This document shows positions 48,482-64,000 of a stretch of 64,000 nt of DNA, one piece after another. This DNA comes from a virus: the IMG/VR virus record IMGVR_UViG_3300027848_000009, positions 64,001-128,000 of that record. One strand, written 5' to 3'. Each line of letters starts with the position of its first letter. Positions within the stretch are counted from its first letter, which is position 1. The notes beneath the pieces were generated by a model. That model worked only from the letters and a program-made list of their open reading frames with translations, did no database searches and was not told the origin of the DNA. The translations under genes and the position numbers were made by a program.

Positions 48482-48961
48482 ATGGCTCTAGATAGGTCTG
48501 GTGTTGAACTTCCGAGGAAGGGTTTCACATATCCCGATTTGGCTAACGCTTCAATCCTCGCCTCGTCGCTTGTGGGGCTTGGATTCGAGAATGCTACTGT
48601 CGCTTCAAACACTCTCAACACGACGGTGTGGTACGATGTCGGCAAGGCTCATGAAATTGTCGTAGACGGGGTCACCTCCACGGCAACCAGTTCTTACACG
48701 GATATACCTATGGGTATTGTCATTACTGTCCGGGCAATCGGACCGTTTTTCCCGCCACATTTCCCGCCCCACTTCCCGCCGTTCTTCCCGCCCCACTTCC
48801 CGCCACATTTCCCGCCGTTCTTCCCGCCCCACTTCCCGCCACATTTCCCGCCGTTCTTCCCGCCCCACTTCCCGCCACATTTCCCGCCGTTCTTCCCGCC
48901 GTTCTTCCCGCCACATTTCCCGCCACATTTCCCGCCGTTCTTCCCGCCATCGTTTAAGTGA
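48482..48961 (+). CDS. Protein with C-terminal (FPPH/FPPF)n repeat; N-terminus weakly PASTA-like
   Basis: 159 aa; aa 90-157 are 17 FPP(H/F/S) units. Confidence 0.8.
   Translation: MALDRSGVELPRKGFTYPDLANASILASSLVGLGFENATVASNTLNTTVWYDVGKAHEIVVDGVTSTATSSYTDIPMGIVITVRAIGPFFPPHFPPHFPPFFPPHFPPHFPPFFPPHFPPHFPPFFPPHFPPHFPPFFPPFFPPHFPPHFPPFFPPSFK
48749..48952 (+). repeat. 17 x 12-bp tandem repeat TTCCCGCC(a/c/g)NNN with 36-bp higher-order period
   Basis: 10 FPPH, 6 FPPF, 1 FPPS counted directly. Confidence 0.95.
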
Positions 48962-48967
48962 TTTCCG

Positions 48968-49243
48968 ATGATCAAGCGGTTCATAAGGTGGTATCTCAGG
49001 CCGATTGACCTAACTCGCGACGAACGAATCACCGGCGCTATTGGCTGGATGCTTCTGATAGTGGGCATTCTCGCCTACGACATTTTTGCTATTAGGACGC
49101 GGAAAATCGAAACGCTTTCTAGGTACTTTTGGCGATCCGCAGAGCGGACTGTATTTGGAAACACCCTGAGGTGCATCTGGGTCTGGCTAACATTTCATCT
49201 ACTTTTTGAAACAAAAGTAAGAAAAACCCTGCACCGAAGATAA
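48968..49243 (+). CDS. Small membrane protein
   Basis: GWMLLIVGILAYD, ETLS, W.WLTFHL. Confidence 0.7.
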   Translation: MIKRFIRWYLRPIDLTRDERITGAIGWMLLIVGILAYDIFAIRTRKIETLSRYFWRSAERTVFGNTLRCIWVWLTFHLLFETKVRKTLHRR

Positions 49244-49265
49244 CCGATCACGCTAATATACGGGC

Positions 49266-49898
49266 ATGGAAGAAACAGACGACGTCTCGTTGATCCACCC
49301 CGGACACTTTGGGGCATCAACAGACAACATCGTCCTCATCGAAGACTTTGTAGATGCAGATGATCTAATCACTCTCCAGAATTTTTTCCCCACTATCGAC
49401 GAATGGGAGAATCCCCTTGAGGATGAGTTCAACGAAGACGGAACTTGCATTTACGACGCTTCATACTGGTGGGACAGGATGTGCAGCGGAGCAATCCTTC
49501 AAAGGACCGCACCAGAAATCCACGACCTGATCGACTTCTACATCAAGAAAATGAAGAACGTCCTCGATCAAAAGTTCAACGTCTCTCTGTACCAGCGACC
49601 GCCAGTGCTAATTAGATGGATGCCCGGAAACGAGCAGCAGCCACACGCCGACAAGCAACTCAATGATGGCACCCCGAACCCTTTCCCGTTGTACGACATC
49701 AACTCGATCATCTACTGGAACGACGATTTCAACGGCGGCGATTTCTACTATCCGGAATACGACATACATCTTCCAATCAAAGCCGGTATGGCCGTCGCCC
49801 ATCCGGGAGATATTCACTACCGGCATGGTGTGAAGCCAATCATTTCCGGCGAACGCTGGACAACACCTTCTTTTTACACGATCACGGAACTGAGATAA
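49266..49898 (+). CDS. Prolyl-4-hydroxylase-like 2OG-Fe(II) oxygenase
   Basis: PHAD, IIYWNDDFNGG, HGV..ISGERW. Confidence 0.9.
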   Translation: MEETDDVSLIHPGHFGASTDNIVLIEDFVDADDLITLQNFFPTIDEWENPLEDEFNEDGTCIYDASYWWDRMCSGAILQRTAPEIHDLIDFYIKKMKNVLDQKFNVSLYQRPPVLIRWMPGNEQQPHADKQLNDGTPNPFPLYDINSIIYWNDDFNGGDFYYPEYDIHLPIKAGMAVAHPGDIHYRHGVKPIISGERWTTPSFYTITELR

Positions 49899-49901
49899 AT
49901 A

Positions 49902-50612
49902 ATGCGCATCGGCGGCTACCTAGGAAACCCCACTGATGGAATTCTTCTCTACAAGGACGTTTGGCCAAAGGAATCAAACTTTGTTGAACGCTTAGAGCGT
50001 GGCCTTGAGCAAAGTTCGAGCGAATATTTTTCGTGGCAGCAGGCAACAGTCGGCGACTACGAAATAATGAAGGACTATCGAGACTGTTTTGATTTCAAAC
50101 TTCGCCAAGCCGACATTCCTGTGTCCGACGAATTTGCCGACCTTGGTCGAGTCTATGAAGAGGTTATTGAGGGAGTGCGTGAATGCGTTCTCCACTACTC
50201 GTCTCTTTACAACCTGCAACTCGACTACGAGGAAGCAACAAACTTTGTGAAGTACGGAGTTGGGCAGCACTTCTCAATCCATCCAGATTCTGGCTTTTCC
50301 TACTCGTGCGCCGTATCGTGCGTCGGATACATCAACGACGACTACGAAGGCGGTGAATATGTGATGCCGTTCAAGAACCTCAAGTTCATCCCCGAGGCCG
50401 GAGATGTAATTGTCCACCCCAGCGACTTCATCTACGCACACGCATCTCAACCAGTCTCATCTGGAATCAAGTACTCAGCAGTGACGATGTACGACTACAA
50501 CGACCGCAATCACCAAGCCCATTCTTCCGCCAAGTCGCCGGAGCCCGCCGTGACAATAAACAGCATTCCCGTCGCAAGTAATCAAACGTCAGCGTACAAC
50601 CCCGGTCCGTAA
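49902..50612 (+). CDS. Prolyl-4-hydroxylase-like 2OG-Fe(II) oxygenase
   Basis: HPD, YINDDYEGGE, HASQPVSSGIKYS. Confidence 0.9.
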   Translation: MRIGGYLGNPTDGILLYKDVWPKESNFVERLERGLEQSSSEYFSWQQATVGDYEIMKDYRDCFDFKLRQADIPVSDEFADLGRVYEEVIEGVRECVLHYSSLYNLQLDYEEATNFVKYGVGQHFSIHPDSGFSYSCAVSCVGYINDDYEGGEYVMPFKNLKFIPEAGDVIVHPSDFIYAHASQPVSSGIKYSAVTMYDYNDRNHQAHSSAKSPEPAVTINSIPVASNQTSAYNPGP

Positions 50613-50615
50613 CCT

Positions 50616-51338
50616 GTGAAAGTTTCGTTAACTAGAACACATCAGAATCCGCCCGAGATCCGTCAGGCTGCAGTACGACGCGACTGGATGGACGACACTT
50701 ACAAGAAGCACGCATACAAGTGTCTGCCACTCACCGAAGCAAACGTAAACGGTTGGGACATGATCCTCCAGCAGGACGTTGTCATCCAGTGGGATGGCGG
50801 ATTGACCGTGCCGAGAGTGCTCAGCGGCGAGAAAATGACGTTTGAGACAAATGGACAAACCTACGAACGCAACATCGTCATGCCGAGCATCGTTGGGATT
50901 ATGTCATTCACGGTTGGATGGTCTTTTTCCACTCCGCCCGGTACCGCCACGTGGATCAGTGGATCACCAAACTATTTCGTTGACGGAGCAGTTCCTCTCA
51001 CTGCCCACATCCCATCCGACTGGTGGCCGGACGAGTTCAACATGAATTGGAAAATCACCAAGATTGGAGAGCCGGTCACATTCCCGGCTGGATCTCCTTT
51101 CATGTTTTTTCAGTTCTACGACACATCCTTGATGCCAAGCGTCGAGTTCGAAGTCGAGAACTACTGGGACAAGCCAGAACTTTCTGCCGCTCGCCAGTCG
51201 TATGGCGATGCGAAAATGAAGAAACTCGAAGAGCAGCCTTGGACATGGATGGGTGGCATCAGGACTGGCCTTGACGAAAACGGAAATCAGGTCGGTCCAC
51301 GATTCGACGGGCACGTTCATTTAAAGGAACCACAGTGA
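50616..51338 (+). CDS. DUF6065-like protein
   Basis: RRDWMD.T..HAYKCLPL.EAN..GW, GSPN, DWWP..F.MNWK. Confidence 0.75.
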   Translation: MKVSLTRTHQNPPEIRQAAVRRDWMDDTYKKHAYKCLPLTEANVNGWDMILQQDVVIQWDGGLTVPRVLSGEKMTFETNGQTYERNIVMPSIVGIMSFTVGWSFSTPPGTATWISGSPNYFVDGAVPLTAHIPSDWWPDEFNMNWKITKIGEPVTFPAGSPFMFFQFYDTSLMPSVEFEVENYWDKPELSAARQSYGDAKMKKLEEQPWTWMGGIRTGLDENGNQVGPRFDGHVHLKEPQ

Positions 51339-52909
51339 GAAAATTTGGCGGGATTGCCTTAGGGCTTAAACTTGGAAACCTTGGCTTCAAGATCAAGGGA
51401 GTTACCCCTCAACAAGTGTTTGACGACCCCTCCTACTTCAGGGAGATTTTCAAACGCAACAAGGTGATCGGCTTTATAGGCATGCATCCCACCGACATCG
51501 AACACATGCAGTTGGTGGACTGTATCTACAAAGGTGTCAGCGATCCAGACTTTCGCACAGGACTTCTTGCCGACCAGCGACATGAAACAATTTCGGATGT
51601 CGAGGACAAATCCGATCCTGAAGGATTCCTGAAACGAAACTGGCATGTCGATAATCCATTCATGCCAGAGCCCCCATGCCTCCTCTCTATCCATATGACC
51701 ACCTACAAAGTGGATCCAGACTATGGGCACACTTTTTTTGTCAGCCTCGCCAACCTGTATGACGAATGCCCCTCCCACCTGAAAGAGCATTTGAGTGACG
51801 CTCACTTCGTGTGCCAGACGGGAGCAATCGATCAGGATATCTCGACACACCCGGCCTTGCGCACCCACCCCGACACAGGGGAAACGATGCTGTACTGGAC
51901 AGGGCCCGGAACGGCTCTTGCCGGGGGCAACACTCCATGGTTTGAAGAACTGTACGGTTGGGTGACGAAATACTGCGCAAACGAAGCGAATCGCTTCAAA
52001 TGGGTTTGGTCAGAAGGAGACGTGATCATCTGGGACAATCGGGCGGTCATGCACGGCTTCTACAATGGATGGGATCGGTCGGAACGCATCTTCCAACGCG
52101 TCGAAGTTGGACATGAGCAACCTTTCTTTGACCCCGACCATGTCGGCAACTGCGATCCGGACTTCGGTGACACCAATGAATACAAGGGTGTCGATAAAGA
52201 TAAATCGAAGGGACCCAATCCGGACCACATACCCCTCGTTTTCACGAAGGGCATCTACGCCCTCGAAGGCTTGGATCATCTTTTCCAGACAGTGACGCTC
52301 TTCGTGTTCTCGAAAGACGGTTCGATACCTGACAACGTTCGCGAGTTCAAAGAATTAATTGATGAGACTGACGACCTTTCCGACGACTTCAACGTTGTCG
52401 GAGTTCCCATCGATGAGTCCAATCGATTGTTTGCAAACTTGATGAGGTACAGCAAACACCACAATCTAGAGGACCCGGTAGAAGGACAGATGTTCCTTTT
52501 CTCTCGCAATGGAGACACACACGGTGGCTCAATGCCCGCCAGAGAAGATCTGATGAGGACAGCCCCATACGAGGGTGGGAAGTTGACGCCGATCGAAACA
52601 GTTCGCGCATATCTCCGCTGGCACCCAGAAATGAGGCATGCTGGCCACGCTTGGCACTATCCGGATTGGTTCCCTCATCAGCCTCTCCAGTTCAGGCCTT
52701 GGGATTTCCAGAACCTTTTCTTCATGACGTACGAGGGTTTTAGTGGAAAAAATCCGCCAGAAGATTTTCTGGTACAGTTCGCCATTGACACGATCTTCGG
52801 TTGCTTCAACCACCTAAGAGACAATGGCGAGCGCAGGCAGATCATCGAGCGAATCAACGATTACGTCTCATACATGCTGGAGTTGGATGAACATGAGTTC
52901 GAGCGATAA
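51335..52909 (+). CDS. TauD/TfdA-family dioxygenase with C-terminal extension
   Basis: WHVD, HPALRTHPDTGE, WSEGDVIIWDNRAVMH, R..R. Confidence 0.88.
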   Translation: MRKFGGIALGLKLGNLGFKIKGVTPQQVFDDPSYFREIFKRNKVIGFIGMHPTDIEHMQLVDCIYKGVSDPDFRTGLLADQRHETISDVEDKSDPEGFLKRNWHVDNPFMPEPPCLLSIHMTTYKVDPDYGHTFFVSLANLYDECPSHLKEHLSDAHFVCQTGAIDQDISTHPALRTHPDTGETMLYWTGPGTALAGGNTPWFEELYGWVTKYCANEANRFKWVWSEGDVIIWDNRAVMHGFYNGWDRSERIFQRVEVGHEQPFFDPDHVGNCDPDFGDTNEYKGVDKDKSKGPNPDHIPLVFTKGIYALEGLDHLFQTVTLFVFSKDGSIPDNVREFKELIDETDDLSDDFNVVGVPIDESNRLFANLMRYSKHHNLEDPVEGQMFLFSRNGDTHGGSMPAREDLMRTAPYEGGKLTPIETVRAYLRWHPEMRHAGHAWHYPDWFPHQPLQFRPWDFQNLFFMTYEGFSGKNPPEDFLVQFAIDTIFGCFNHLRDNGERRQIIERINDYVSYMLELDEHEFER

Positions 52910-53729
52910 ACAACTTCCCGTCGGCAAACACCTTGGTGGTGGAGTAGTCCTATTCGAACAAGTGTTCGATCTTGACTGGGATTGGATGAGAACGTACTGC
53001 AAAGATGTTTTGCAGCGCGAGCGCGCCACCATGTACGAGCCGGGCATCGACCCGATTACTGGCGACGATGGATACATCAACAGAAGTGGATACTTCTTCA
53101 AGAAAGATTCTCTCGACGAGATGCCATGGCGCGGCAGTTTTGTTCATCAAGACAGCAGGTCCGACGTTATCGAAACCCTTGATTACATCGAAGAACGAAG
53201 AGATGCATGCCTGTTGACGTATCTCGGAATGTTCCCAATTGCGGGAAAATGTATTTGGTGGAAAATCAAGAGCCACATCGTCGCCTACCCGATTGGTGGA
53301 TTCCTCGGGATGCACGCCGACATCAGTACCGATTATGAATACGGCAAACCTCACCCCCGTGACCAACTCGCGACAAGGAACACCGTCTCAGTTGTCGCGT
53401 ACCTCAACGATTCAGTTAAATCTGCGGACGAGTTGGATGGAACCAACTTTACCGGAGGGGCGCACAACTTCACCTACCTCGACATCAATCATGAGGATAT
53501 AAAGAAGGGCGACATGCTCTTCTTCCCCTCGAACTACGTAGCGGCACATGAGGTACAGCCAGTAACTGGCGGTTGGCGCTACTCCTACTTGGGGTGGTAT
53601 TGTCAGGGAACACCGAATCCGGCGGTGTGTGAAAATGTAATGGACCCGAGCGACAACCCGGAACTCGCCAAAATCTCGACGAATGTGTACATGAAACATG
53701 GCTACTCACTCCTGCCCCCAGTCGGCTAG
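52893..53729 (+). CDS. 2OG-Fe(II) oxygenase (P4H-like)
   Basis: GMHAD, YLND, GDMLFFPSNY..AHEV..GGWRYS. Confidence 0.88.
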   Translation: MSSSDKQLPVGKHLGGGVVLFEQVFDLDWDWMRTYCKDVLQRERATMYEPGIDPITGDDGYINRSGYFFKKDSLDEMPWRGSFVHQDSRSDVIETLDYIEERRDACLLTYLGMFPIAGKCIWWKIKSHIVAYPIGGFLGMHADISTDYEYGKPHPRDQLATRNTVSVVAYLNDSVKSADELDGTNFTGGAHNFTYLDINHEDIKKGDMLFFPSNYVAAHEVQPVTGGWRYSYLGWYCQGTPNPAVCENVMDPSDNPELAKISTNVYMKHGYSLLPPVG

Positions 53730-54279
53730 AACAATCGGAATTGTCCACCCCGGCAGGATGGGTGGCACTTTGGCGTACGATCTCAAGAAAAGTGGCCACA
53801 TCGTCTACTGGGCATCGTCAGGTCGCTCCGAAGCAACCGAAGAGCGAGCCAACGAGTTTGATCTTGTCGACCTCGTCGACGTCGACACCGTCCTTGCCAA
53901 AAGCGAAATCGTGTTCTGCATTGCCTTTGGTGGAGCACCACTTGAAATCGCCAAGCACGTCGCCACAGTTGGCTACGACGGTATCTACGTCGACGCCAAT
54001 GGCCTGTGGGGCGAAGAGTCGGAGAAAGAGATTGCGTCCATCATCAACGATGCTGGGATCACCTACGTCGAAGCCGGTCTGTACGGTTGGCCACACCCGG
54101 GTCGCGAAGGATACACGGACGAGCACACCCTGTACCTGTCAGGAGAGAAGGCTGATGAAATTGCCAATCTTTTCTCATCGGGGTATTGGACTACCGAAGT
54201 ACACCCGACGTCAGCAAAAGAAGTAAAACGCCTGAGGAACGATCGGGAACGAGGAACAGAGTTCCCCGAACAAGAGTAA
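53698..54279 (+). CDS. NAD(P)-binding Rossmann protein (6PGDH/3-hydroxyisobutyrate dehydrogenase N-domain-like)
   Basis: IGIVHPGRMG, IYVDAN, YVEAGLYGWP; lacks C-terminal helical domain. Confidence 0.75.
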   Translation: MATHSCPQSARTIGIVHPGRMGGTLAYDLKKSGHIVYWASSGRSEATEERANEFDLVDLVDVDTVLAKSEIVFCIAFGGAPLEIAKHVATVGYDGIYVDANGLWGEESEKEIASIINDAGITYVEAGLYGWPHPGREGYTDEHTLYLSGEKADEIANLFSSGYWTTEVHPTSAKEVKRLRNDRERGTEFPEQE

Positions 54280-54950
54280 TGAAAGCAACTCACTACGGAT
54301 TTGGAATCGTCGAGTACGAGAACGTAGCCGACATCGATTCCGATTATCTGGAAGGCTGGCTAGAGAGGCGACGTCTTCAAGAACCTAACGACTACACGCT
54401 TCAGAGCGACGGCACCTACATGAACAGGGGTGGGTACGTCTTCACGGAAGATCAAGTGAACGCTTCGCCCGGTCGTCTACTCCGGTTGAAGGTCAACTGC
54501 AGTGATGAAGATCTCGCCTTCGCAGAAAAACTCGAAAATGTCACCGCACTCTGCATTTCCGAATATTTTAATATCTTCCCAGAGGCGCAACGAAGTGTCT
54601 GGTGGAGGGCGGATCCCCATGTGGCAACCTACAAGCCCGGAGGATACATGGGGTACCACCACGACAATCTTGTTGGGGCTGGATCGGAAAGCGAAAAAGC
54701 GATCTACAGCGTCCTCACTGCATCTATAATCCTGAAAGATCAATGTAGCGGCGGAGATTTAGGGTTCAAATACATTGACAAGCATTTTGCGCCCAAGGCT
54801 GGAACTGCTTTTGTTTACCCTGCGGGTTTTCTAGGAACACACGAAGTGTGTCCGGTAACTTCCGGTGAACGTATTTCTTATTTGGAGTTCTTTGGGCACG
54901 GAACGCTGATGGGAGCCAACCCTTTCACTCCTCCTCGTACGGAATCCTAG
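54279..54950 (+). CDS. 2OG-Fe(II) oxygenase (P4H-like)
   Basis: GYHHD, GGDL.F, THEV.PVTSGER. Confidence 0.88.
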   Translation: MKATHYGFGIVEYENVADIDSDYLEGWLERRRLQEPNDYTLQSDGTYMNRGGYVFTEDQVNASPGRLLRLKVNCSDEDLAFAEKLENVTALCISEYFNIFPEAQRSVWWRADPHVATYKPGGYMGYHHDNLVGAGSESEKAIYSVLTASIILKDQCSGGDLGFKYIDKHFAPKAGTAFVYPAGFLGTHEVCPVTSGERISYLEFFGHGTLMGANPFTPPRTES

Positions 54951-56707: not shown

Positions 56708-57035
56708 TGTTCTCTACCTCGAACGACGAAATGTGACGACGACGCCAAAACCTGCGCGATAGCAGCATCATCCAACTTTTTTGTTTACGTCCAAACGAGA
56801 ATCCGGGATCGCAGGAACGTTGCTTGTCCCCGACCGGCAGGTAGGGCTCCATTGGATGTGGTTCGAACATCCACCCACATCGATCAATCAGATCGTCGAT
56901 TGTGTACGTGTTCATGTCTTCTTCGTTCAAACCAAGAATGTAGAAGCAGGACAACAGGTGCTTGGATGACCACCCCAATTCCGAGTGCGGGCTGTAAATC
57001 TTTCCAGATGTTGGGCTTACTTGCCTAATTGTCAT
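56700..57035 (-). CDS. Hypothetical protein (apparent paralog of 62779-63063)
   Basis: ILGLNEED...TIDDLI pattern. Confidence 0.65.
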   Translation of the reverse strand: MTIRQVSPTSGKIYSPHSELGWSSKHLLSCFYILGLNEEDMNTYTIDDLIDRCGWMFEPHPMEPYLPVGDKQRSCDPGFSFGRKQKSWMMLLSRRFWRRRHISSFEVENNV

Positions 57036-57265
57036 TACTGATCTTCTTTGAGTTTTTCACAGAGCACAAGCATCCCTTCTTCTGGGAACTCAAGCGCTCC
57101 GATCGCCGGATTGAAGACAAGCGTTTTTTCCATTCGGTTTCCAAATGGATCGACCTCCGTTGTGACGTCCTCTAACATCGACATACCGGCCGCTGCGGCA
57201 ATCTCTCGTGGATGACGATCGTCTCCACCGATTACCGAGAGAAGATGAGGTGAAGAGAATTTCAT
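57035..57265 (-). CDS. Small hypothetical protein
   Basis: 76 aa, coupled start/stop. Confidence 0.65.
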   Translation of the reverse strand: MKFSSPHLLSVIGGDDRHPREIAAAAGMSMLEDVTTEVDPFGNRMEKTLVFNPAIGALEFPEEGMLVLCEKLKEDQ

Positions 57266-57492
57266 AACAAGAGACTTTCAAGGGCCGACAACTGCCGCTT
57301 TAGTGAAAGATAGTTGGAGTAATTGAGATCCTCCTCAGTGACAGGGATCACCATATCCGAGGATGCCGTTTCAACGTCAACTTCTAGGAAAGAGCATAAA
57401 ATGTAAATGGAGTATTCCAAAAAATCTTGTGCTTCCAGTTTCGCCTGAGCAACAACTTCTGAAGTTAGTGACATTTCTCGTCCTTGAGTCAA
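57262..57492 (-). CDS. Small helical hypothetical protein
   Basis: 76 aa, coupled. Confidence 0.65.
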   Translation of the reverse strand: MTQGREMSLTSEVVAQAKLEAQDFLEYSIYILCSFLEVDVETASSDMVIPVTEEDLNYSNYLSLKRQLSALESLLL

Positions 57493-57710
57493 GATGCCTG
57501 AATTGTCGCAAGATATGACTTCGCGAGATTCAAGGTCTGCATTGATCGCAGAAGCTCTGCGTCGCTGGGGTCATCTGATGTGAAATCGTCCGCAACAGAT
57601 GATACATCAAAACCCCTGCCGAGGCAGGCGATGAGAACGTCTTCCTCAATCGCCGTGAGTGCAGTCTCTGCGGCTTCAATTTTCTGATCTTTGGTGATTG
57701 TGAAAATCAT
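57489..57710 (-). CDS. Small helical hypothetical protein
   Basis: 73 aa, coupled. Confidence 0.65.
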   Translation of the reverse strand: MIFTITKDQKIEAAETALTAIEEDVLIACLGRGFDVSSVADDFTSDDPSDAELLRSMQTLNLAKSYLATIQAS

Positions 57711-57712
57711 CT

Positions 57713-57946
57713 TCAGAGCCTTTCGAGAGCGATTTTTAGCCGGTTGTAAGATGCCACTCGCTCAGCCAGACCGATTTCAAGAACGCCTTCGCACTCTTCT
57801 GGCGTTGGATGACTTCCCGGGTCGATGCTGTCGGGGAGAATTCCGGCATGAAGCGCGGCGGCGATCACCAATTTCTCCTGCTCTTGCAGGACATTCCCTA
57901 GATGCCGTCGCTTTGCGTCGTTGCTAACCCTGTTAAGCGCTACCAT
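57713..57946 (-). CDS. Small helical hypothetical protein
   Basis: 77 aa, GGAGA RBS. Confidence 0.65.
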   Translation of the reverse strand: MVALNRVSNDAKRRHLGNVLQEQEKLVIAAALHAGILPDSIDPGSHPTPEECEGVLEIGLAERVASYNRLKIALERL

Positions 57947-58034: not shown

Positions 58035-58682
58035 ATGATTGATCTTGTTAAACCTTCACAAACGCTGATTGAAACATTGGTCGCCGAACATCACCTCGGA
58101 CCAACACCTGACGGAGAAAGCGTGTACGACATCCCCGTTGGATCGATCGATGGTTCCGTCTCCCGAATGCTCGAAAAGCGTAAAGATAACGTCACAATGA
58201 TGGTGAACGTCACCGGGGGGTGCGGCAACTCGATGCAGTACCCGATGCTGCAAGTTCTTGAGTACGACTACGCCGACTATGGATTCAAAATAATTTGCAT
58301 CCCAACAAACGACTACTGCGAATACGGGTATGGCGACTTCAAGGACAACTCAACCAGCACAGCCCAAGAAGCACACGACTACGCCTACTACAATTACAGG
58401 GTCAGGATGGACTTTACCGAACTCCTTATCTCCCGCCACAACCGGGAAGACGAAGATAGCAAAACCCCACACCGCCTCTACGCCAGACTCGGAATTGACG
58501 AAGGTCCAATTAGAGGAAATTTTGAGAAGTGGATAGTCTCTAGAGACGGCAAGCGTCGCGCCCGGTTCACCAACGGCTCCCTCCTCCCTGCGAATTTTGA
58601 GAGCGGCAACGACAACTACGCACCGCAGGAAGCACTGCGACGCATCCGTGGAGCAATCGAATATTTCCTAACAGAGGACTAA
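58035..58682 (+). CDS. Glutathione peroxidase-like (Cys-type) thioredoxin-fold protein
   Basis: VNVTGGCGNSMQY..LQ.L, IPTNDYC, NFEKWIVSRDG. Confidence 0.8.
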   Translation: MIDLVKPSQTLIETLVAEHHLGPTPDGESVYDIPVGSIDGSVSRMLEKRKDNVTMMVNVTGGCGNSMQYPMLQVLEYDYADYGFKIICIPTNDYCEYGYGDFKDNSTSTAQEAHDYAYYNYRVRMDFTELLISRHNREDEDSKTPHRLYARLGIDEGPIRGNFEKWIVSRDGKRRARFTNGSLLPANFESGNDNYAPQEALRRIRGAIEYFLTED

Positions 58683-58861: not shown

Positions 58862-59283
58862 TGGAACGCGTAATCTACTCTCCAAGCGAAGACGAACTGG
58901 AAGAAGCACAGTCGATTGCCGAATCCAATGGACTGCTCATCCAAGTCGGCGACTCCGAAGCGACGAAAAACATGGACTTCGATCGCTCGAAAGTCCAAAT
59001 AATTAGCATCCCGAGCGTTCAGGAATTGCGCCTTTCCAACACCTTTTTCAAGTTGGGTCAGCTTTTGCGCGTCGAGTACATCGACGAGTTCGACAGCGTC
59101 AACGGACTGGAAATGCGCCTGAGACACGAAACGGGCCTAGTTGAGGATTCCAACGGGAAAGTTTCACCATGCGGTTCGATCATCGTTTTTCCCATCAGGC
59201 CAGCGAACAGTGGCAAATACGCTGGCGAAATTTTCGACAACGATGGCGTCATCGCTACATTCACATGCGAGGTGAGAGCGTGA
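58861..59283 (+). CDS. Hypothetical protein
   Basis: 140 aa, beta-rich C-terminal half. Confidence 0.65.
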   Translation: MERVIYSPSEDELEEAQSIAESNGLLIQVGDSEATKNMDFDRSKVQIISIPSVQELRLSNTFFKLGQLLRVEYIDEFDSVNGLEMRLRHETGLVEDSNGKVSPCGSIIVFPIRPANSGKYAGEIFDNDGVIATFTCEVRA

Positions 59284-59843
59284 AGTCCGACCACATCAAC
59301 GTAAGTCACATTGACGTCGACTTTTCCAATTTCATAGAGGCTTTAGAAAACTGGTCAAAAATGCCAGACATCCCGATTGACTGGAAGAAGGCCAAGGTTG
59401 GCAATGGGGACGTGAGTGACGGGAGATCCAATAGCGTCATCGATCTTATGCCAGTCCTTGAAAATGAAACCTTTTCAGGACATCCCGTATCTGTCGAGTT
59501 CAAACGTTTACATGTACTGATAGACGAAATTGTTACCGAATACAAGGAACGATTCGGCATCCCTCTCCGCTTCGACAACGGATGGGCAGTAAATCGATAC
59601 GAAATTAGTCAGGAATACGTCCCCCACTATGACTGGGCACCACTCGAAGACAGGGTGGTCAGCGTCGTCGTGATGGCTAATACCCCCACTTCCGGCGGAG
59701 AACTAATTTTCCCCGACCACGATCTCACGGTACCTGCAGCAGCAGGCACGGTCGTCGTTTTCCCGTCGTCCTTTCCTTACAGGCATGCATCAATGCCTGT
59801 GAAAGAAGGAACGAAATACTCGATTGTTTCTTGGTTGGGTTAA
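59280..59843 (+). CDS. Prolyl-4-hydroxylase-like 2OG-Fe(II) oxygenase
   Basis: YVPHYD, RVVS, GGELIF, FPSSFPYRH..PVKEGTKYS; GTG start overlaps previous TGA. Confidence 0.9.
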   Translation: MKSDHINVSHIDVDFSNFIEALENWSKMPDIPIDWKKAKVGNGDVSDGRSNSVIDLMPVLENETFSGHPVSVEFKRLHVLIDEIVTEYKERFGIPLRFDNGWAVNRYEISQEYVPHYDWAPLEDRVVSVVVMANTPTSGGELIFPDHDLTVPAAAGTVVVFPSSFPYRHASMPVKEGTKYSIVSWLG

Positions 59844-59845
59844 TC

Positions 59846-60409
59846 ATGTTTCCAAAAATCTACGAAGACTACATTTACGTCTACGAAAAATCCGTTGTCA
59901 TTGAAGAAGGCATGGAGGACGTGATCAGGAGGGGGACTGCCTCGGATTGGTCTTTCGTGAGTTTTACGACAGTCGTGCCGGAATCAGCCGATGTCGCGCT
60001 CTCGGAGATCGCCTCTCTCAATCCACTATCGACCCAAGTCGACGACGTTTTCCTAAATTACTTGAGAGAGAAAATTACTTCAATAGATTTTATTTCATTA
60101 GAAAATTTCCAAGATTACTGTCTATCCCATGACATTTCTGCTAAACAATTTTCTTCTTACGACATGATTAGAATTTCTTCTACAAGCAACAATGGGTTCT
60201 CTGCAATTGTAGGAGGACTGCTGCAAGACGGAATTATATCCGAGGTTGTATCTATCTCTCCGAATGATACAAAACTTGACTTTCCCCACCTCGGAATAGA
60301 AGTACCCATTTCGCAGGGTGACACAGTTTTTATTCCGGGCGGATTCCCATACTCTTTCCGATGTTTAGCAAACCCATCCAATATCTTCCTAAAACGTTCT
60401 TGTCGGTAA
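59846..60409 (+). CDS. Degenerate 2OG-Fe(II) oxygenase-fold protein (metal ligands apparently lost)
   Basis: LDFP...GDTVFIPGGFPYSF aligns with neighbour but no HxD/H. Confidence 0.5.
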   Translation: MFPKIYEDYIYVYEKSVVIEEGMEDVIRRGTASDWSFVSFTTVVPESADVALSEIASLNPLSTQVDDVFLNYLREKITSIDFISLENFQDYCLSHDISAKQFSSYDMIRISSTSNNGFSAIVGGLLQDGIISEVVSISPNDTKLDFPHLGIEVPISQGDTVFIPGGFPYSFRCLANPSNIFLKRSCR

Positions 60410-60412: not shown

Positions 60413-61897
60413 TTGGGAGTTTCAAAAATCGTCATAGTCGGATCTGGCACTGCCGGACTTGTTAACGCCCTCGTTCTTAAAAAAGTGTTGAGCAAGTTAG
60501 ATGTCACCGTCGTTTCATCTGAATCAATCGGCATTATTGGTGTAGGTGAAGGAAGCACCGAGCACTGGACAACATTCGAAAAATTGACAAATATTGATCG
60601 ATCTGAGATGGTACGAGAAACCGGAGCCACCTTCAAATTTGGAATTAGATTTCTCGACTGGACAACACACACACCCGACTACTTCCATAGCATCAGTGGC
60701 GGACAGGCCACACAGGCGACCTTCAACGGAACCTACAACTGGGCGGTCGCTCAAGAAAAGCAGTTGACTCCAACATTCGGAACACCGTCGATCATCCACA
60801 ATCTGGTCAGAGAAACCGAAGAAAACATATTAGACCAAACAAACCAGTTTCATTTCGATACGTTTCTCCTGAACAAATATCTGAAAAGCAAGTGTTCAGA
60901 TGCTGGTGTCAACTTCATTGAGGGAACAGTCGTAGGGATTCGCCGCGATCCAATCACTGGAGACGTTTCAGGGATACATCTTGAGGACCGCGAAGATGTG
61001 ATCGAAGCAGACTTCGTCGTTGACGCTTCAGGTTTCCGTCGTGAGGTCATTTCCAGACTAGGGGATGCAAGGTGGGAGTCATTCGAGGATTACCTCCCTA
61101 CCGACAGCGCTGTCGTTTTCCAAACACCAGAAGACACCGTCAACGGCATAAAGCCTTACACGTTGGCAACCGCGATGAGTTCTGGCTGGATGTGGGAAAT
61201 TCCAACTATCAGTCGCCGCGGCAATGGTTACGTTTTCTCTTCATCACATATCTCTGACGAGGATGCAGTAGATGAGGCGTCGAGAGTGAGTGGCTTCGAT
61301 GTTCCAGATACCGCTCGTATCATTAGGTACAATTCTGGATACCTGAAAGAAACATGGAAGCACAACTGCGTCGCTGTCGGTCTTTCTTCCAACTTTATTG
61401 AGCCGCTTGAAGCAACATCAATTTCCGCCTCCATAAATCAGGCGATACTTTTGACGAGTTACATTCCTGCGTACTCCCCCGATGCAAGCATTATCAGGTC
61501 TGAATATTGCCGCATTTTTGATTCCATGATGGAAAACTTATTGACAATGATTTCGCTTCACTATGTTTCCAATAGGGACGATACAAGCATGTGGGCGGAT
61601 CAGAAACATCGGCCACTACCGCCCACCCTTTCCACGATTATCGAGATTATGAAGTATCGCGGTCTGGAAGAACACGACATACCAGACTGCGGATTTGATC
61701 TATTTAGATCCTTCCATTTTTGGCACGTTGCTCAGGGGCAGGGTTTGATTTCGAAAGATGTCTGCGCCAGCAATATCTCGATGCGTGGCACCAATGACCT
61801 ACTCGAACGCAGCGTTTCAGATAGCATTTCCGGAAGCCGACACGGCAAATTGATCGGACACAAAGAAGCACTCATGAAAGGTTGCAGTCGTGGCTAA
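60413..61897 (+). CDS. Flavin-dependent (tryptophan-halogenase family) halogenase
   Basis: GSGTAG, IGVGEGST, ATFKFGI (catalytic Lys position), DASGF, GWMWEIP, FIEPLEATSI. Confidence 0.92.
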   Translation: MGVSKIVIVGSGTAGLVNALVLKKVLSKLDVTVVSSESIGIIGVGEGSTEHWTTFEKLTNIDRSEMVRETGATFKFGIRFLDWTTHTPDYFHSISGGQATQATFNGTYNWAVAQEKQLTPTFGTPSIIHNLVRETEENILDQTNQFHFDTFLLNKYLKSKCSDAGVNFIEGTVVGIRRDPITGDVSGIHLEDREDVIEADFVVDASGFRREVISRLGDARWESFEDYLPTDSAVVFQTPEDTVNGIKPYTLATAMSSGWMWEIPTISRRGNGYVFSSSHISDEDAVDEASRVSGFDVPDTARIIRYNSGYLKETWKHNCVAVGLSSNFIEPLEATSISASINQAILLTSYIPAYSPDASIIRSEYCRIFDSMMENLLTMISLHYVSNRDDTSMWADQKHRPLPPTLSTIIEIMKYRGLEEHDIPDCGFDLFRSFHFWHVAQGQGLISKDVCASNISMRGTNDLLERSVSDSISGSRHGKLIGHKEALMKGCSRG

Positions 61898-62600
61898 GAA
61901 TCCAAGTTTTCACTTTCCGACCGGAAAGATTGGTCAAATCATGTATGGGGATAACTTGATCCCAAAACGAATATGTGAAGGATTGATAGATGAAAGCAGT
62001 CGCTACTTCGACAGGCTTTTCAAGCCCGGGATAACTATTAGTGGATCGAACCCCCTTGTCAAGTCGTCAAGTGACTTCAACTTTTCTAAAAAGATGATTG
62101 ATGAGGTCGGTGTCGACTCAAGCAATTTTGCATTTTACGAGAACGAAGTTTCAGTTGGTTTGTACTCGGCTATCGCCCACTACATTCAAGAATATGAAGA
62201 ATTGTGGAATTGGCCGGGCGTTCAGGATACGGGCTACCGGATGCAAAGATACTTCCGCAATCACGGTTACTACAGGGCCCACGTCGACGGCAATCCATGG
62301 GAGTCCATATCGGGTGGCGAGAAACCACGAGTACTAGGCGTGATCATCTACCTCAATGATGTCGAAGTTGGTGGAAGTACATATTTCCCCAGCCATGACG
62401 TTCATGTCCCAGCAAAAGCAGGTCGAATCAGTGTTTTCCCAACGAATTGGACCCACCCCCACATGGGGCAGGTACCGATTACTTCAGATAAGTGGATAAT
62501 CAGTACTTTTATGACCGCCGACATTTACGATCGGACACCAGCACAAGAGCCCGAAACGTACGCCAAGGATAACGAATCCTCCGAAACAGATGGCTCGTGA
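61890..62600 (+). CDS. Prolyl-4-hydroxylase-like 2OG-Fe(II) oxygenase
   Basis: YRAHVD, IIYLNDVEVGG.T.F, FPTNWTHPH.G, KWI. Confidence 0.9.
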   Translation: MAKNPSFHFPTGKIGQIMYGDNLIPKRICEGLIDESSRYFDRLFKPGITISGSNPLVKSSSDFNFSKKMIDEVGVDSSNFAFYENEVSVGLYSAIAHYIQEYEELWNWPGVQDTGYRMQRYFRNHGYYRAHVDGNPWESISGGEKPRVLGVIIYLNDVEVGGSTYFPSHDVHVPAKAGRISVFPTNWTHPHMGQVPITSDKWIISTFMTADIYDRTPAQEPETYAKDNESSETDGS

Positions 62601-62632
62601 TGGTAAAATAAGGTTTAAGGTTGGAGGTAACC

Positions 62633-62779
62633 ATGGCTGAACCAGAGGAAGACTACGTCCCAGAAGGGTGGGACCCCGAACTTCAGAGATTTGTTCGTGA
62701 CGACGGAGCAGCCGATCCCGTTGTCACCTGTTTCGTTTTTGAAAACAACCCGATTTACGAGAATGAGGAATCAGAATAA
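62633..62779 (+). CDS. 48-aa acidic peptide
   Basis: MAEPEEDYVPEGWDPELQRFVRDDG...ENEESE; GGAGG RBS; TGGTAAAAT promoter at 62601; stop overlaps next ATG. Confidence 0.65.
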   Translation: MAEPEEDYVPEGWDPELQRFVRDDGAADPVVTCFVFENNPIYENEESE

Positions 62780-63063
62780 TGGGAAAGTACGACATCGATG
62801 ACGATTATGGCTTTCGCATCACACAGATCGCTCGACTCATCTCACTTTGCGGTGAAGACGAGACGCGGGCCACAGAAATTACCGTCGACGAACTGACGGG
62901 CCTGCTGGCCGGGCACTACTACCCAAACGCGAGCCCGACGTCGCCTATGAACACAAACGCCGAGAAGGTGTTGTATCGAGTTTTCTACAGAACAAAAGAG
63001 CAAGCAAGAACGAACTGCTATTACCGCGACATTCTGAAAGCAAGGATGTTTGGAGATGTCTAA
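62779..63063 (+). CDS. Hypothetical protein (apparent paralog of 56700-57035)
   Basis: LCGEDE...ITVDEL pattern. Confidence 0.65.
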   Translation: MGKYDIDDDYGFRITQIARLISLCGEDETRATEITVDELTGLLAGHYYPNASPTSPMNTNAEKVLYRVFYRTKEQARTNCYYRDILKARMFGDV

Positions 63064-63763
63064 CATGACCCCAATCCAACTCTATTCGGTGACCGAGGCG
63101 CTTTCGAATCCCAGCCACCACACCACAGACACAATCGAAAACCGCAAGGCTTTTGGACAAGCGGTCAAAAAAGAAGAAATCCAGCTTGGCGCCCAGCAAG
63201 ACAGGAACTCCACTGGATGGTCCACCGAGATCGCGCATTACGAGATGCTCTCACTGGGGTCGTTCAACTTCAACGTCATCCTCTCTGGGTATCTCACCGC
63301 CCTAGAGGGAATTATCAGGTCAGCGAACCCCAGTAAACTCTTTTGTAGCGGTGGCGCATCTCTGCGTGTCGTCAGTCAGGGCGATTTTGGAGCGGAACTT
63401 TTCGTTGAAAACTCCATCCACCTCGACTACATCGAGCGGCACATCGGCATTCCTGATGACGTCACTTATAATATAATTACGCATACAGATGTCGAGTCCG
63501 GAACATTCCCGGCTCAACTCGACTGCGCCATCCTAGATACTGTGACGGCATCAAGAAATATTCATATTCTTGACTCGTTGATTAACAACATTCCTTCAGG
63601 GAAGACGATAATCCTGACAGTCTCTCTGGATCAAGGCTTTCTGGCCCAATACGGGGATAATCATGACTTCTGGCCAATGTTCAGAGACCTCGCTAGTCGT
63701 GATGACATCCGAGTCCACCACATCCCCCTATCGCTTGGTCTAACTATCATCACAAAACGTTGA
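63056..63763 (+). CDS. Class I SAM methyltransferase-like fold protein (divergent; apparent paralog of 55934-56707)
   Basis: NPSKLFCSG, LDCAILD, LINNIPSGKTIIL, RDDIRVHHIP..LGLTIITK. Confidence 0.5.
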   Translation: MSNMTPIQLYSVTEALSNPSHHTTDTIENRKAFGQAVKKEEIQLGAQQDRNSTGWSTEIAHYEMLSLGSFNFNVILSGYLTALEGIIRSANPSKLFCSGGASLRVVSQGDFGAELFVENSIHLDYIERHIGIPDDVTYNIITHTDVESGTFPAQLDCAILDTVTASRNIHILDSLINNIPSGKTIILTVSLDQGFLAQYGDNHDFWPMFRDLASRDDIRVHHIPLSLGLTIITKR

Positions 63764-63782
63764 AATAGTGTAGGCTGCAGCA

Positions 63783-64000
63783 ATGGCCGACCTGAACAGC
63801 GATAAAATTATTACCGCTCGATTTCTGGGCGATATTCCAGAGGTGAAGCCGGGCCAAATTCTGGTTGCACCGTCTAGTAATAGGATGTACGACGAGAGAA
63901 TTCATCCAGTCGATAACTTTCTTAACTTCCCTCAGTGGTTCAAAGATCTGGATTCCGAGCAGCAAACGCTCAAGAGGTGTCAAGGTACTCAAGACTATTT
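63783..64000 (+). CDS. Partial protein with P.WFK...T.KRC..DY motif (DUF6065-related phage family)
   Basis: ATG 63783, TAGGCT 6 nt upstream; open to window end; not in ORF track. Confidence 0.65.
   Translation, partial: MADLNSDKIITARFLGDIPEVKPGQILVAPSSNRMYDERIHPVDNFLNFPQWFKDLDSEQQTLKRCQGTQDY

What the first reader, a model, noticed from the sequence alone, without database searches (positions are those of the whole stretch)
48482..64000. Candidate phage protein-tailoring system: (FPPH/FPPF)17 repeat protein followed by a 15-kb island of modifying enzymes
Seen: directly after the last tail fibre is a 159-aa protein whose C-terminal 68 residues are almost only Phe, Pro and His. Downstream are 7 P4H-like 2OG-Fe(II) oxygenases, a degenerate eighth, a TauD-like dioxygenase, a flavin-dependent halogenase, two methyltransferase-like proteins, a GPx-like protein, an NAD-binding protein and two DUF6065-like proteins. 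Known: P4H-type enzymes hydroxylate Pro in polyproline-II repeats (collagen, extensin); flavin halogenases act on aromatic rings; RiPP clusters place a repetitive precursor next to tailoring enzymes. Inference: the repeat is the substrate (Pro hydroxylation, His/Phe hydroxylation, methylation or halogenation), giving either a decorated, possibly metal-binding virion appendage or a RiPP-like product. The match between enzyme chemistries and the three repeat residues is the main signal; no substrate link is shown by the sequence itself.
Basis: partly seen in the sequence, partly recalled or inferred. Interest (0 to 1): 0.92.

Follow-up and report, generated by a model that had tools for sequence, protein, structure and literature searches.

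The report
Aromatic-proline rod protein beside phage hydroxylases
An uncultured freshwater phage of actinobacteria encodes, right after its tail fibre, a small protein whose tail is 17 repeats of (His/Phe)-Phe-Pro-Pro. In three unrelated phage lineages such aromatic-proline rods sit directly upstream of a bank of prolyl-hydroxylase-like enzymes, so the rod is the best candidate substrate, though no chemistry has been shown.

Summary
Window 48482-48961 encodes a 159-aa protein: a PASTA-like head plus 17 x (H/F)-F-P-P, ending SFK. The enzyme list downstream is confirmed almost item by item:
- seven intact P4H/P3H-type 2OG oxygenases and one degenerate copy
- a TauD-like enzyme and a flavin halogenase
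- two COMT-like methyltransferase folds
- a GPx-like and a Rossmann protein
- DUF6065 and a remote DUF6065 relative

Refinements:
- DUF6065 models as a dUTPase-like fold, not an oxygenase.
- TauD is closest to small-molecule enzymes.
- The halogenase is accessory, found in 2 of 5 genomes.

The substrate link is unproven, but the proposed genomic test favours it:
- All 27 DUF6065-seeded loci with at least 9 kb upstream carry the repeat on the same strand.
- All 6 distant family members examined lie within 10 kb of oxygenase banks.
- The module is shared with about 200-kb phages that show no detectable terminase or sheath similarity.
- Four complete ~115-kb phages of a third lineage have variant rods (FFxPPx) immediately upstream of 8-10 oxygenases.

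The rod also forms an internal linker in tail-region proteins of about 1000-1480 aa. That favours a structural rod over a RiPP.

This scan noted the same family earlier on other DNA (e1-3484603). Interest 0.7; the mechanism is inferred.

The parts
45935..48475 (+). Last tail-fibre gene (846 aa); stops 6 bases before the repeat gene
   Evidence: PHROG tail-fibre families, best E 7e-35. Homologues precede the repeat gene in related loci.
48482..48745 (+). Head of the repeat protein (residues 1-88): PASTA-like globular domain
   Evidence: AlphaFold2 pLDDT is about 90 over residues 10-88. The top 12 Foldseek PDB hits are all PASTA domains, but weak (E 0.07-1.3). Other family members carry PF03793 or fn3 heads. 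There is no Pfam hit for this head itself.
48746..48961 (+). Rod: 17 x (H/F)-F-P-P, then S-F-K and the stop codon
   Evidence: Predicted as disordered or extended, pLDDT 44-55.
48968..49243 (+). 91-aa protein with hydrophobic (putative membrane) stretches, DUF7427-like
   Evidence: PF24202 E 1.5e-5, below cut-off. Sequence. Conserved at this position in close relatives.
49266..49898 (+). 2OG-Fe(II) oxygenase a (210 aa), P3H/P4H-like
   Evidence: PF13640 at 19.8 bits, below cut-off. Profile against PDB: prolyl 3-hydroxylase 1 E 1.7e-6, B. anthracis P4H E 1e-3. HxD...H present.
49902..50612 (+). 2OG-Fe(II) oxygenase b (236 aa)
   Evidence: PF13640 E 6.8e-8; triad present.
50616..51338 (+). DUF6065 protein (240 aa), dUTPase-like fold
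   Evidence: PF19541 E 1.3e-42. Model pLDDT 79, pTM 0.77. VIA-align Z 9.5-10.2 to dUTPases; 13 chains at Z >= 8, all dUTPase-like. Foldseek agrees.
51335..52909 (+). TauD/TfdA-family dioxygenase (residues 35-254) plus a conserved C-terminal domain of about 270 aa and unknown type
   Evidence: PF02668 E 4.7e-24. Nearest solved relatives act on small molecules: TauD, AtsK, SdpA. The C-terminal half has many invariant columns.
52824..53729 (+). 2OG-Fe(II) oxygenase c (301 aa)
   Evidence: PF13640 E 1.9e-10. Profile against PDB: P4H E 0.005-0.01, PiuC E 0.02.
53698..54279 (+). NAD(P)-binding Rossmann-like protein (193 aa)
   Evidence: PF10727 E 1.7e-5.
54186..54950 (+). 2OG-Fe(II) oxygenase d (254 aa)
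   Evidence: PF13640 E 1.7e-9.
54925..55923 (-). 2OG-Fe(II) oxygenase e (332 aa)
   Evidence: PF13640 E 5.8e-8.
55934..56707 (-). Catechol-O-methyltransferase-like fold (257 aa)
   Evidence: No Pfam hit. ESM Atlas: Methyltransf_3 clusters, features 0.90, TM 0.59-0.62. Present in all 14 His-type loci and in none of 12 non-His loci.
56700..57946 (-). Five small genes of unknown function (111, 76, 76, 73 and 77 aa)
   Evidence: ORF list. Conserved in close relatives. No Pfam hit for the 111-aa one.
58035..58682 (+). Glutathione-peroxidase-like protein (215 aa)
   Evidence: PF00255 E 5.9e-9. Relatives sit next to the repeat gene in PASTA-type loci.
59169..59843 (+). 2OG-Fe(II) oxygenase f (224 aa)
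   Evidence: PF13640 E 5.1e-13.
59831..60409 (+). Degenerate oxygenase relative (192 aa), lacking HxD
   Evidence: hhalign to the oxygenase alignments, 81-94% over about 34 columns. No Pfam hit.
60413..61897 (+). Flavin-dependent halogenase (494 aa); accessory to the module
   Evidence: PF04820 E 2.2e-101. GSGTAG and WMWEIP motifs. Present in only 2 of 5 related genomes.
61890..62600 (+). 2OG-Fe(II) oxygenase g (236 aa)
   Evidence: PF13640 E 2.6e-8.
63050..63763 (+). Second catechol-O-methyltransferase-like fold (237 aa)
   Evidence: ESM Atlas: features 0.91-0.93, TM 0.64-0.66 to Methyltransf_3 clusters. No Pfam hit.
63783..64000 (+). Start of a 281-aa remote DUF6065 relative that runs about 630 bases past the window end
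   Evidence: Full ORF at L020:783-1628. hhalign to the DUF6065 alignment: 92.7%, E 4.3e-7, 132 columns.

Best explanation
The 159-aa protein is a late, tail-associated structural protein of an actinobacterial phage. It has a PASTA-like head that may bind cell wall, and an extended aromatic/proline rod. The adjacent bank of P3H/P4H-type 2OG-Fe(II) oxygenases hydroxylates the Pro-Pro pairs of this rod after translation, and possibly other residues. This would be comparable to prolyl hydroxylation in collagen, plant extensins and mussel foot protein, and would stiffen or functionalise a rod displayed at the tail.

Shown:
- the anatomy of the protein and its family
- the enzyme families
- the tight, same-strand linkage of rod gene and oxygenase bank in three phage lineages
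- the use of the same rod as a linker inside large tail-region proteins

Inferred:
- that the rod adopts polyproline-II geometry. The 12-residue H-H-F super-repeat equals four turns of a three-residue helix, which would give faces of constant composition.
- that the protein is in the virion
- that any oxygenase acts on it

Some island genes are probably not part of this chemistry: the halogenase, TauD and perhaps DUF6065.
For: (1) Linkage seeded from the enzyme side. All 27 of 27 DUF6065-seeded viral loci with at least 9 kb of upstream sequence carry an xFPP array upstream on the same strand. The 22 loci without one all have less than 6 kb upstream.

(2) Linkage seeded from the repeat side. 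All 15 of the 17 close loci with downstream sequence carry the oxygenase/DUF6065 genes downstream of the repeat, 13 of them in the window's gene order; the other two end at the repeat. All 6 distant family members examined, with fn3 or PASTA heads, lie within 10 kb of PF13640 banks, 5 of them with DUF6065.

(3) Not simple vertical inheritance. The complete about 200-kb phages G003 and G004 show no terminase or sheath match to this phage at E <= 1. In a whole-genome tblastn against G003, the best-conserved shared genes are the module enzymes: DUF6065 68%, oxygenase a 62%, oxygenase c 55%. The few other shared genes of comparable length are 24-46% identical.

(4) Third lineage. Four complete ~115-kb genomes carry 8-10 PF13640 genes each. 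Each has, immediately upstream of the main bank on the same strand, an fn3-headed protein whose rod has drifted to FFxPPx or FFPFFPP units. The sequence changes while the aromatic-aromatic-Pro-Pro make-up and the position stay.

(5) Chemistry. Oxygenase profiles hit prolyl 3-hydroxylase 1 (E 1.7e-6), bacterial P4H and lysyl hydroxylase. All seven copies keep the iron triad. The rod is the most proline-dense real ORF in the genome, with 20 Pro in 40 residues.

(6) Position. The module is embedded among tail-fibre and other structural genes in every lineage examined.

(7) Collagen-like Pro-containing fibres, the obvious alternative substrate, occur in only 7 of 26 module loci.

(8) Precedent. 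Chlorella virus PBCV-1 encodes a P4H that hydroxylates Pro-containing peptides sequence-specifically (PMC7019647, citing Eriksson 1999).
Against: - No direct evidence of modification exists.
- All three lineages probably infect Actinobacteria: WhiB is present in G000, in a relative of G007, and a WhiB-like match is in G003. Shared ecology and cassette exchange of tail modules could therefore keep genes together without an enzyme-substrate relation.
- P4H-like oxygenases occur singly in cyanophages that have no such repeat (S-RIM50, S-SKS1). The enzyme family does not need the rod.
- In the third lineage several PF13640 genes lie far from the rod gene, and a rod-bearing 1070-aa tail protein lies about 28 kb from the bank.
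- TauD's nearest solved relatives act on small molecules, and DUF6065 has a nucleotide-enzyme fold.
- For PBCV-1, hydroxyproline was not found in virions (PMC7019647).
- Seven to ten paralogues are more than one tetrapeptide obviously needs.
Confidence: 0.5

Rival explanations
1. The rod protein is a purely structural tail accessory: a spacer carrying a binding head. The neighbouring enzymes are auxiliary metabolic or host-takeover genes acting on small molecules or host proteins, as proposed for cyanophage 2OG oxygenases and halogenases. On this view the two are neighbours only because accessory genes accumulate next to the exchangeable tail-fibre cassette.
For: - TauD is closest to taurine, alkylsulfate and phenoxypropionate dioxygenases.
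- The genome also has a PAPS-reductase-like gene.
- The halogenase is accessory.
- DUF6065 has a dUTPase-like fold.
- Cyanomyoviruses carry several 2OG oxygenases and PrnA-like halogenases with proposed metabolic or repair roles (PMC3037559), and two of them have no repeat.
- G000 has a further oxygenase outside the island.
Against: This does not explain why the rod gene sits directly upstream of the bank on the same strand in three lineages with different backbones, while the rod sequence itself drifts. It also does not explain why the module enzymes are the best-conserved genes shared with G003.
Confidence: 0.28
2. The oxygenases modify other virion proteins, and the aromatic-proline rod is only a bystander in the same structural block. 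Candidate substrates are collagen-like or Thr/Pro-rich fibres, or the tail fibres themselves.
For: - A 518-aa protein with (G-N-P)n collagen-like repeats and a 595-aa Thr/Pro-rich protein lie just downstream of the island.
- G003 and some relatives have (G-P-T)n fibres next to the rod gene.
- The closest solved relatives of the oxygenases are collagen hydroxylases.
Against: Pro-containing collagen-like repeats are present in only 7 of 26 distinct module loci, whereas the rod is in all of them. The rod is the only proline-rich element that is universal and adjacent.
Confidence: 0.12
3. The protein is a RiPP-like precursor. The folded head acts as a leader, the repeat holds multiple core peptides, and the island holds the tailoring enzymes for a released product.
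For: - A repetitive C-terminal region lies next to oxygenases, methyltransferase-like proteins and a halogenase.
- Some family members end in Cys-rich tails reminiscent of RiPP cores.
Against: - The same rod is an internal linker between large N-terminal bodies and fn3 or Hint domains in tail-region proteins of about 1000-1480 aa.
- The heads are fn3 or PASTA modules; by general knowledge such modules are common on surface proteins.
- No recognised RiPP recognition element, leader protease or exporter appeared in the Pfam scans of the island.
- The gene lies inside the tail-fibre block.
Confidence: 0.05

Closest known systems
Chlorella virus PBCV-1 prolyl 4-hydroxylase with viral proline-rich repeat proteins
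   Same: A virus encodes a small P4H-type 2OG oxygenase together with proteins carrying short proline-rich tandem repeats that are plausible substrates. The enzyme hydroxylates Pro-containing peptides sequence-specifically in vitro (PMC7019647).
   Different: PBCV-1 is a eukaryotic giant virus with a single enzyme. Here a bacteriophage carries 7-10 paralogues in a bank. The repeat is aromatic-aromatic-Pro-Pro rather than the Pro-Ala-Pro-Lys type (the latter from my own knowledge of Eriksson 1999). The candidate substrate gene is physically linked to the enzymes. In PBCV-1, hydroxyproline was not detected in virions.
Collagen P4H/P3H, and plant or algal P4H acting on extensin-type hydroxyproline-rich glycoproteins
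   Same: The enzymes share the family (PF13640, HxD...H triad). The best solved-structure matches are P3H1 and bacterial P4H. In both cases the substrates are extended polyproline-II repeats (established knowledge).
   Different: The rod has no Gly-X-Y or Ser-Pro4 motif. No glycosyltransferases were seen in the island. Identity to the characterised enzymes is low and confined to the C-terminal half of the fold.
2OG-Fe(II) oxygenases and PrnA-like halogenases of T4-like cyanophages
   Same: These are phage-borne oxygenases of the same Pfam family, with a flavin halogenase as sporadic accessory genes of unknown role (PMC3037559). The closest cultured-phage homologues of oxygenase a are cyanophage genes at about 30% identity.
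   Different: Cyanophage copies are scattered in non-structural regions, and the two genomes checked have no xFPP repeat. Here the copies form a bank tied to a rod protein inside the tail module of actinophages.
Gamma-zein (VHLPPP)8 and mussel foot protein 1 (AKPSYPPTYK)n
   Same: These are short tandem repeats with Pro-Pro next to aromatic or His residues. Gamma-zein forms an amphipathic polyproline-II rod, and Mfp-1 carries hydroxylated Pro and Tyr. Both points come from my own knowledge and were not tested here.
   Different: They are eukaryotic proteins with no sequence relationship. The resemblance is in composition and proposed chemistry only.

Membership tests
P4H/P3H-type 2OG-Fe(II) oxygenases (Pfam 2OG-FeII_Oxy_3) | Match to the family profile above its curated cut-off | tested here: met
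   Six of the seven copies score 33.8-50.2 bits against a cut-off of 27. Oxygenase a scores 19.8 bits, but its ortholog profile hits prolyl 3-hydroxylase 1 at E 1.7e-6.
P4H/P3H-type 2OG-Fe(II) oxygenases (Pfam 2OG-FeII_Oxy_3) | Iron-binding HxD...H triad and a basic residue for 2-oxoglutarate after the distal His | tested here: met
   Present in all seven aligned paralogues. Absent from the degenerate eighth.
P4H/P3H-type 2OG-Fe(II) oxygenases (Pfam 2OG-FeII_Oxy_3) | Hydroxylation of peptidyl proline | not testable with these tools
   Needs an enzyme assay or mass spectrometry.
Flavin-dependent (tryptophan-type) halogenases | Family profile, GxGxxG flavin motif and WxWxIP motif | tested here: met
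   PF04820 E 2.2e-101 over the full length. GSGTAG at residue 10 and WMWEIP at residue 259. A Lys lies in an ATFK context near residue 74; I place it by memory of RebH and did not align it.
TauD/TfdA dioxygenases | Family profile, and the nature of the nearest characterised relatives | tested here: met
   PF02668 E 4.7e-24. The ortholog profile hits TauD, AtsK and SdpA at E 1e-19 to 1e-16, all acting on small molecules. The C-terminal 270 aa are unassigned.
DUF6065 | Family profile above cut-off | tested here: met
   PF19541 at 146 bits against a cut-off of 26.6. The fold is dUTPase-like, Z about 10.
Trimeric dUTPases | The five conserved dUTPase sequence motifs | not tested
   Only the fold was compared; identity to dUTPases is 7-16%. 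The invariant residues of the DUF6065 alignment were not mapped onto dUTPase motifs.
PASTA domain (head of the repeat protein) | Match to the PASTA profile or fold | tested here: inconclusive
   No Pfam hit for this head at E 0.01. hhalign to the PASTA-type heads of relatives gives E 0.0023 but only 12.7% probability. The top 12 Foldseek hits are all PASTA domains at E 0.07-1.3, with TM about 0.56-0.60 by target.
RiPP precursor with tailoring cluster | A recognised RiPP maturase, leader protease or exporter next to a short precursor | tested here: not met
   None was found in the Pfam scans of all island ORFs. The rod also occurs inside structural proteins of about 1000-1480 aa.
Catechol-O-methyltransferase-like class I methyltransferases (Methyltransf_3) | Family profile or fold | tested here: inconclusive
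   No Pfam hit at E 5. The Atlas feature score of 0.90-0.93 and TM of 0.59-0.66 come from low-confidence Atlas models, pLDDT 0.52-0.59.

The most novel reading that the evidence does not exclude
Freshwater actinophages build a post-translationally hydroxylated tail appendage, possibly further O-methylated. An aromatic/proline polyproline-II rod would be decorated by a dedicated bank of 7-10 specialised oxygenases. This would be the first hydroxyproline-type modified structural protein in a bacteriophage, and would give a function to the long-unexplained phage 2OG oxygenases. In some lineages the rod end would be processed by a C-terminal Hint domain.
Probability: 0.35. Interest if true: 0.88.

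Novelty: new variant of a known kind. Interest (0 to 1): 0.7.

Why it matters
Phage-encoded 2OG-Fe(II) oxygenases have been catalogued for more than 15 years without a known substrate. Here they have a specific and cheap-to-test candidate: a small protein, or even a synthetic (HFPP)n peptide, encoded next to them in abundant uncultured freshwater phages.

If the link holds, it would show enzymatic maturation of phage tail structures by hydroxylation. It would also define a new repeat class (aromatic-aromatic-Pro-Pro rods) with possible use as a rigid, modifiable spacer, and give a marker for a widespread actinophage tail module.

If it fails, the rods remain an undescribed family of phage structural linkers.

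Tried and rejected
- Complex prediction of oxygenase a with the rod (residues 85-159) gave no verdict: score 0.02 against a mark of 0.32. This is not evidence either way.
- The look-up of sequencing runs listed no RNA holder, only freshwater DNA runs.
- Read laying showed only that contigs break inside the repeat, giving no information on copy-number variation.
- Megablast and tblastn of the island, the repeat protein, a PASTA-type relative and DUF6065 against about 50,000 cultured-phage records found nothing.
- The promoter and terminator scan of 44500-64000 was at shuffle level, so it gave no operon evidence.
- A degenerate xFPP DNA pattern in bacterial genomes hit many loci, but with x = V, P, L, S or R, mostly as out-of-frame or non-coding artefacts. 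Only one true family member appeared among the 80 loci, on a low-coverage contig binned with a Verrucomicrobiales MAG that carries tail-fibre and oxygenase homologues.
- Covariation of rod composition with enzyme content was tested and set aside. His-type and non-His rods split on a single branch of the DUF6065 tree, and the methyltransferase-like gene follows it (14/14 against 0/12). That is one evolutionary event, so it has no statistical weight.
- My first guess, that this was a T4-like cyanophage island, was rejected. The terminase is closest to Gordonia phages and the genome carries WhiB.
- DUF6065 as a cupin or oxygenase was rejected on the fold search.
- Literature searches for DUF6065 and for the repeat strings found no paper.

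Full report
**What the window is.** The window is bases 64001-128000 of a 155,887-bp IMG/VR virus record judged 98% complete.
- It encodes a large terminase, a tail sheath and tail fibres.
- No cultured phage is close. The terminase is at most about 43% identical to any, and the best matches are Gordonia phages.
- The genome carries a WhiB gene at G000:138723-138914. That family rang only in Corynebacterium among 14 control genomes. WhiB is the accepted marker of actinobacterial phages (PMC6802176).
- The DNA is held by freshwater metagenome runs.

I therefore read it as a freshwater actinophage, not a cyanophage as the enzyme list first suggested.

**The repeat protein.** The ORF at 48482-48961 starts 6 bases after the stop of an 846-aa tail-fibre gene. 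It gives 159 aa: 88 residues of ordinary sequence, then 17 units of x-F-P-P, then S-F-K.
- The order at x is F HH F HH F HH F HH F F HH F.
- At the DNA level the second Phe is always TTC and the first Pro always CCG. The second Pro and the His codons vary, giving a 36-bp super-period: 92% matches, against 78% for the 12-bp period.
- A near-identical database variant (P0002) has exactly one 12-residue super-unit fewer. Copy number therefore changes in frame.
- AlphaFold2 folds residues 10-88 confidently (pLDDT about 90) as a beta-alpha-beta3 module. Its 12 best Foldseek matches are all PASTA domains, though at weak E-values.
- The rod is predicted without regular structure, pLDDT 44-55.
- Geometric inference only: a 12-residue super-repeat equals four turns of a polyproline-II helix. 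That would put P-F-F-P on one face and H/F/P/P on the other two, giving an amphipathic rod.

**The family.** A search of 5.8 billion proteins found 60 relatives of similar length and 47 longer ones.
- The rod is the constant part.
- The heads are the local PASTA-like type, bona fide PASTA (PF03793) or fn3 (PF00041).
- The tails end in x-F-K, in Cys-rich stretches of 20-50 residues, in a further fn3 domain, or in a Hint-like domain of the form C-[IV]-x-E-x-T-L....
- In 54 distinct relatives the x position is F 424, H 292, Y 162, W 11, other 4, with 4-34 units.
- In proteins of about 1000-1480 aa the rod is an internal linker. It follows a large N-terminal body and precedes an fn3 or Hint domain. 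Those genes lie just after tape-measure and distal-tail genes.
- A degenerate DNA pattern scan of bacterial genomes returned mostly artefacts with aliphatic x. The one true member sat on a phage-like contig.

I found no paper containing the repeat strings or naming DUF6065.

**The enzymes.** Pfam confirms seven 2OG-FeII_Oxy_3 genes, TauD, Trp_halogenase, GSHPx, a Rossmann protein and DUF6065.
- All seven oxygenases keep HxD...H and the following Lys or Arg.
- 59831-60409 is a degenerate copy.
- Ortholog profiles of oxygenase a and of the c/d/e group hit prolyl 3-hydroxylase 1 (E 1.7e-6), Bacillus anthracis P4H, PiuC-type hydroxylases and lysyl hydroxylase 3, and nothing else of note. 'P4H-like' is correct at family level.
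- The halogenase has GSGTAG and WMWEIP.
- The two proposed methyltransferases have no Pfam match. They resemble catechol-O-methyltransferase-type clusters in the ESM Atlas by features and by structure. This is a lead, not a proof.
- The ORF that starts at 63783 is a remote DUF6065 relative.

Three results change the picture:
- DUF6065 models well (pLDDT 79) and has a dUTPase-like fold, with Z about 10 and 13 chains at Z >= 8, all dUTPase-like. It is not an oxygenase.
- The TauD domain is nearest to enzymes of small molecules, and it carries a strongly conserved unknown C-terminal domain.
- The halogenase is present in only 2 of 5 related genomes.

- *From the repeat side.* 17 IMG/VR loci were found. 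All 15 with downstream sequence carry the oxygenase/DUF6065 genes downstream of the repeat, 13 of them in the order tail fibre, rod protein, small protein, oxygenase a, oxygenase b, DUF6065, TauD and so on. The other two end at the repeat.
- *From distant family members.* Six relatives with other heads all lie within 10 kb of PF13640 banks, five of them with DUF6065.
- *From the enzyme side.* Of 80 DUF6065-seeded loci, all 27 with at least 9 kb upstream have the array upstream on the same strand. The distance is 1.2-8.5 kb, median 3.9 kb. The 22 loci without it all have less than 6 kb of upstream sequence.

Shared ancestry could produce this pattern, so I looked for independence.
- G003 and G004 are complete 202-210-kb phages carrying the Tyr-type module. 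They have no terminase or sheath match to this phage at E <= 1.
- In a whole-genome tblastn against G003, the best-conserved shared genes are DUF6065 (68%), oxygenase a (62%) and oxygenase c (55%). The few other shared genes of comparable length are 24-46% identical.
- A third lineage consists of abundant ~115-kb phages with DNA polymerase III alpha. It first looked like a counter-example: complete genomes with 8-10 PF13640 genes and no strict xFPP match.
- Reading those genomes resolved this. Each has, immediately upstream of the main oxygenase bank and on the same strand, an fn3-headed protein whose rod has drifted to (G/S)FF(S/A)PP hexamers or FFPFFPP units. Three of the four are followed by a Hint-like domain.

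So the rod sequence evolves, while its aromatic-aromatic-Pro-Pro make-up and its place in front of the bank persist.

Controls and limits:
- Two cyanophages with the closest cultured homologues of oxygenase a have single, scattered oxygenase genes and no repeat.
- Pro-containing collagen-like repeats, the classical P4H substrate, are present in only 7 of 26 distinct module loci.
- Within this genome the rod is the most proline-dense real ORF.

**What remains against the substrate reading.**
- Nothing here shows a modification.
- All three lineages probably infect Actinobacteria, and tail modules are exchanged as cassettes. Linkage could reflect co-transfer of a host-specific block.
- Some oxygenase genes in the third lineage are dispersed, and a rod-bearing tail protein there lies about 28 kb from the bank.
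- TauD, DUF6065 and the halogenase do not fit a simple proline-hydroxylation scheme.
- In the one studied viral precedent, PBCV-1, hydroxyproline was not found in virions (PMC7019647).
- The correlation between His-containing rods and the methyltransferase-like gene is perfect (14/14 against 0/12) but rests on a single branch.
- The complex prediction gave no verdict.

The rod protein and a bank of P3H/P4H-type oxygenases form a conserved, mobile module of actinophage tail regions, and the rod is the best candidate substrate (my odds about 0.5).
- The RiPP alternative is unlikely (about 0.05).
- Not all island genes belong to the module.
- The same family was noted earlier in this scan on another genome (e1-3484603), with the same reading.
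- New here: the third lineage with drifted rods, the dUTPase-like fold of DUF6065, the PASTA-like head, the accessory status of the halogenase, the linker and Hint-domain forms, and the lack of detectable terminase or sheath similarity between the phage lineages that carry the module.

Noticed in passing
window 16555-18987 (+): The large terminase is 810 aa. Orthologues in G001 and G002 match only residues 1-51 and 425-810, at 75-86% identity. About 370 residues are therefore an insertion in this phage, possibly an intein or homing element. A PHROG 'DnaC-like helicase loader' hit falls at residues 41-122.
   Followed up: partly
G000:C1:138723-138914 (outside the window): A WhiB-family gene (E 2.3e-14) points to an actinobacterial host.
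   Followed up: partly
L020:2730-4286 and L020:4597-6384 (genome 129730-131286 and 131597-133384, just past the window end): Two unusual proteins follow the island. One is a 518-aa protein with collagen-like (G-N-P)n repeats and a long His/Asn-rich stretch. The other is a 595-aa protein with long Thr/Pro runs. Both are further possible hydroxylase substrates or fibre components.
   Followed up: partly
G012:C1:107944-109272 (-), G016:C1:83856-85190 (-), G019:C1:88104-89411 (+); proteins P0080, P0085, P0087, P0097, P0109: In several relatives the rod is followed directly by a Hint (Hedgehog/intein-like) N-terminal motif, C-[IV]-x-E-x-T-L...G-D-x-V. This suggests autoprocessing at the rod's C-terminal end.
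   Followed up: no
proteins P0004, P0008, P0033, P0059, P0061, P0063, P0067: Many fn3- and PASTA-headed family members end in Cys-rich tails of 20-50 residues, for example runs such as CSCCCCSG. Their function is unknown.
   Followed up: no
window 24189-25364 (+): A PAPS-reductase-like gene (PHROG 2302, E 4e-73). Together with the TauD-like gene it may reflect sulfur metabolism rather than protein tailoring.
   Followed up: no
G000:C1:46178-46924 (-) and 47900-48625 (-) (upstream of the window): A further 2OG-FeII_Oxy_3 gene and a 241-aa gene lie outside the island in this phage. Their homologues in G003 lie inside the oxygenase module (159.3-165.0 kb).
   Followed up: partly
protein P0002 against window 48482-48961: A near-identical variant of the repeat protein has 14 units instead of 17, exactly one H-H-F super-unit fewer. 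This is in-frame copy-number variation between strains.
   Followed up: partly
window 51335-52909, residues about 260-524: The C-terminal half of the TauD-like protein is strongly conserved, with many invariant Trp, His and Pro residues (for example RHAGHAWHYPDWFPHQP). It matches no Pfam family and no solved structure by sequence.
   Followed up: no
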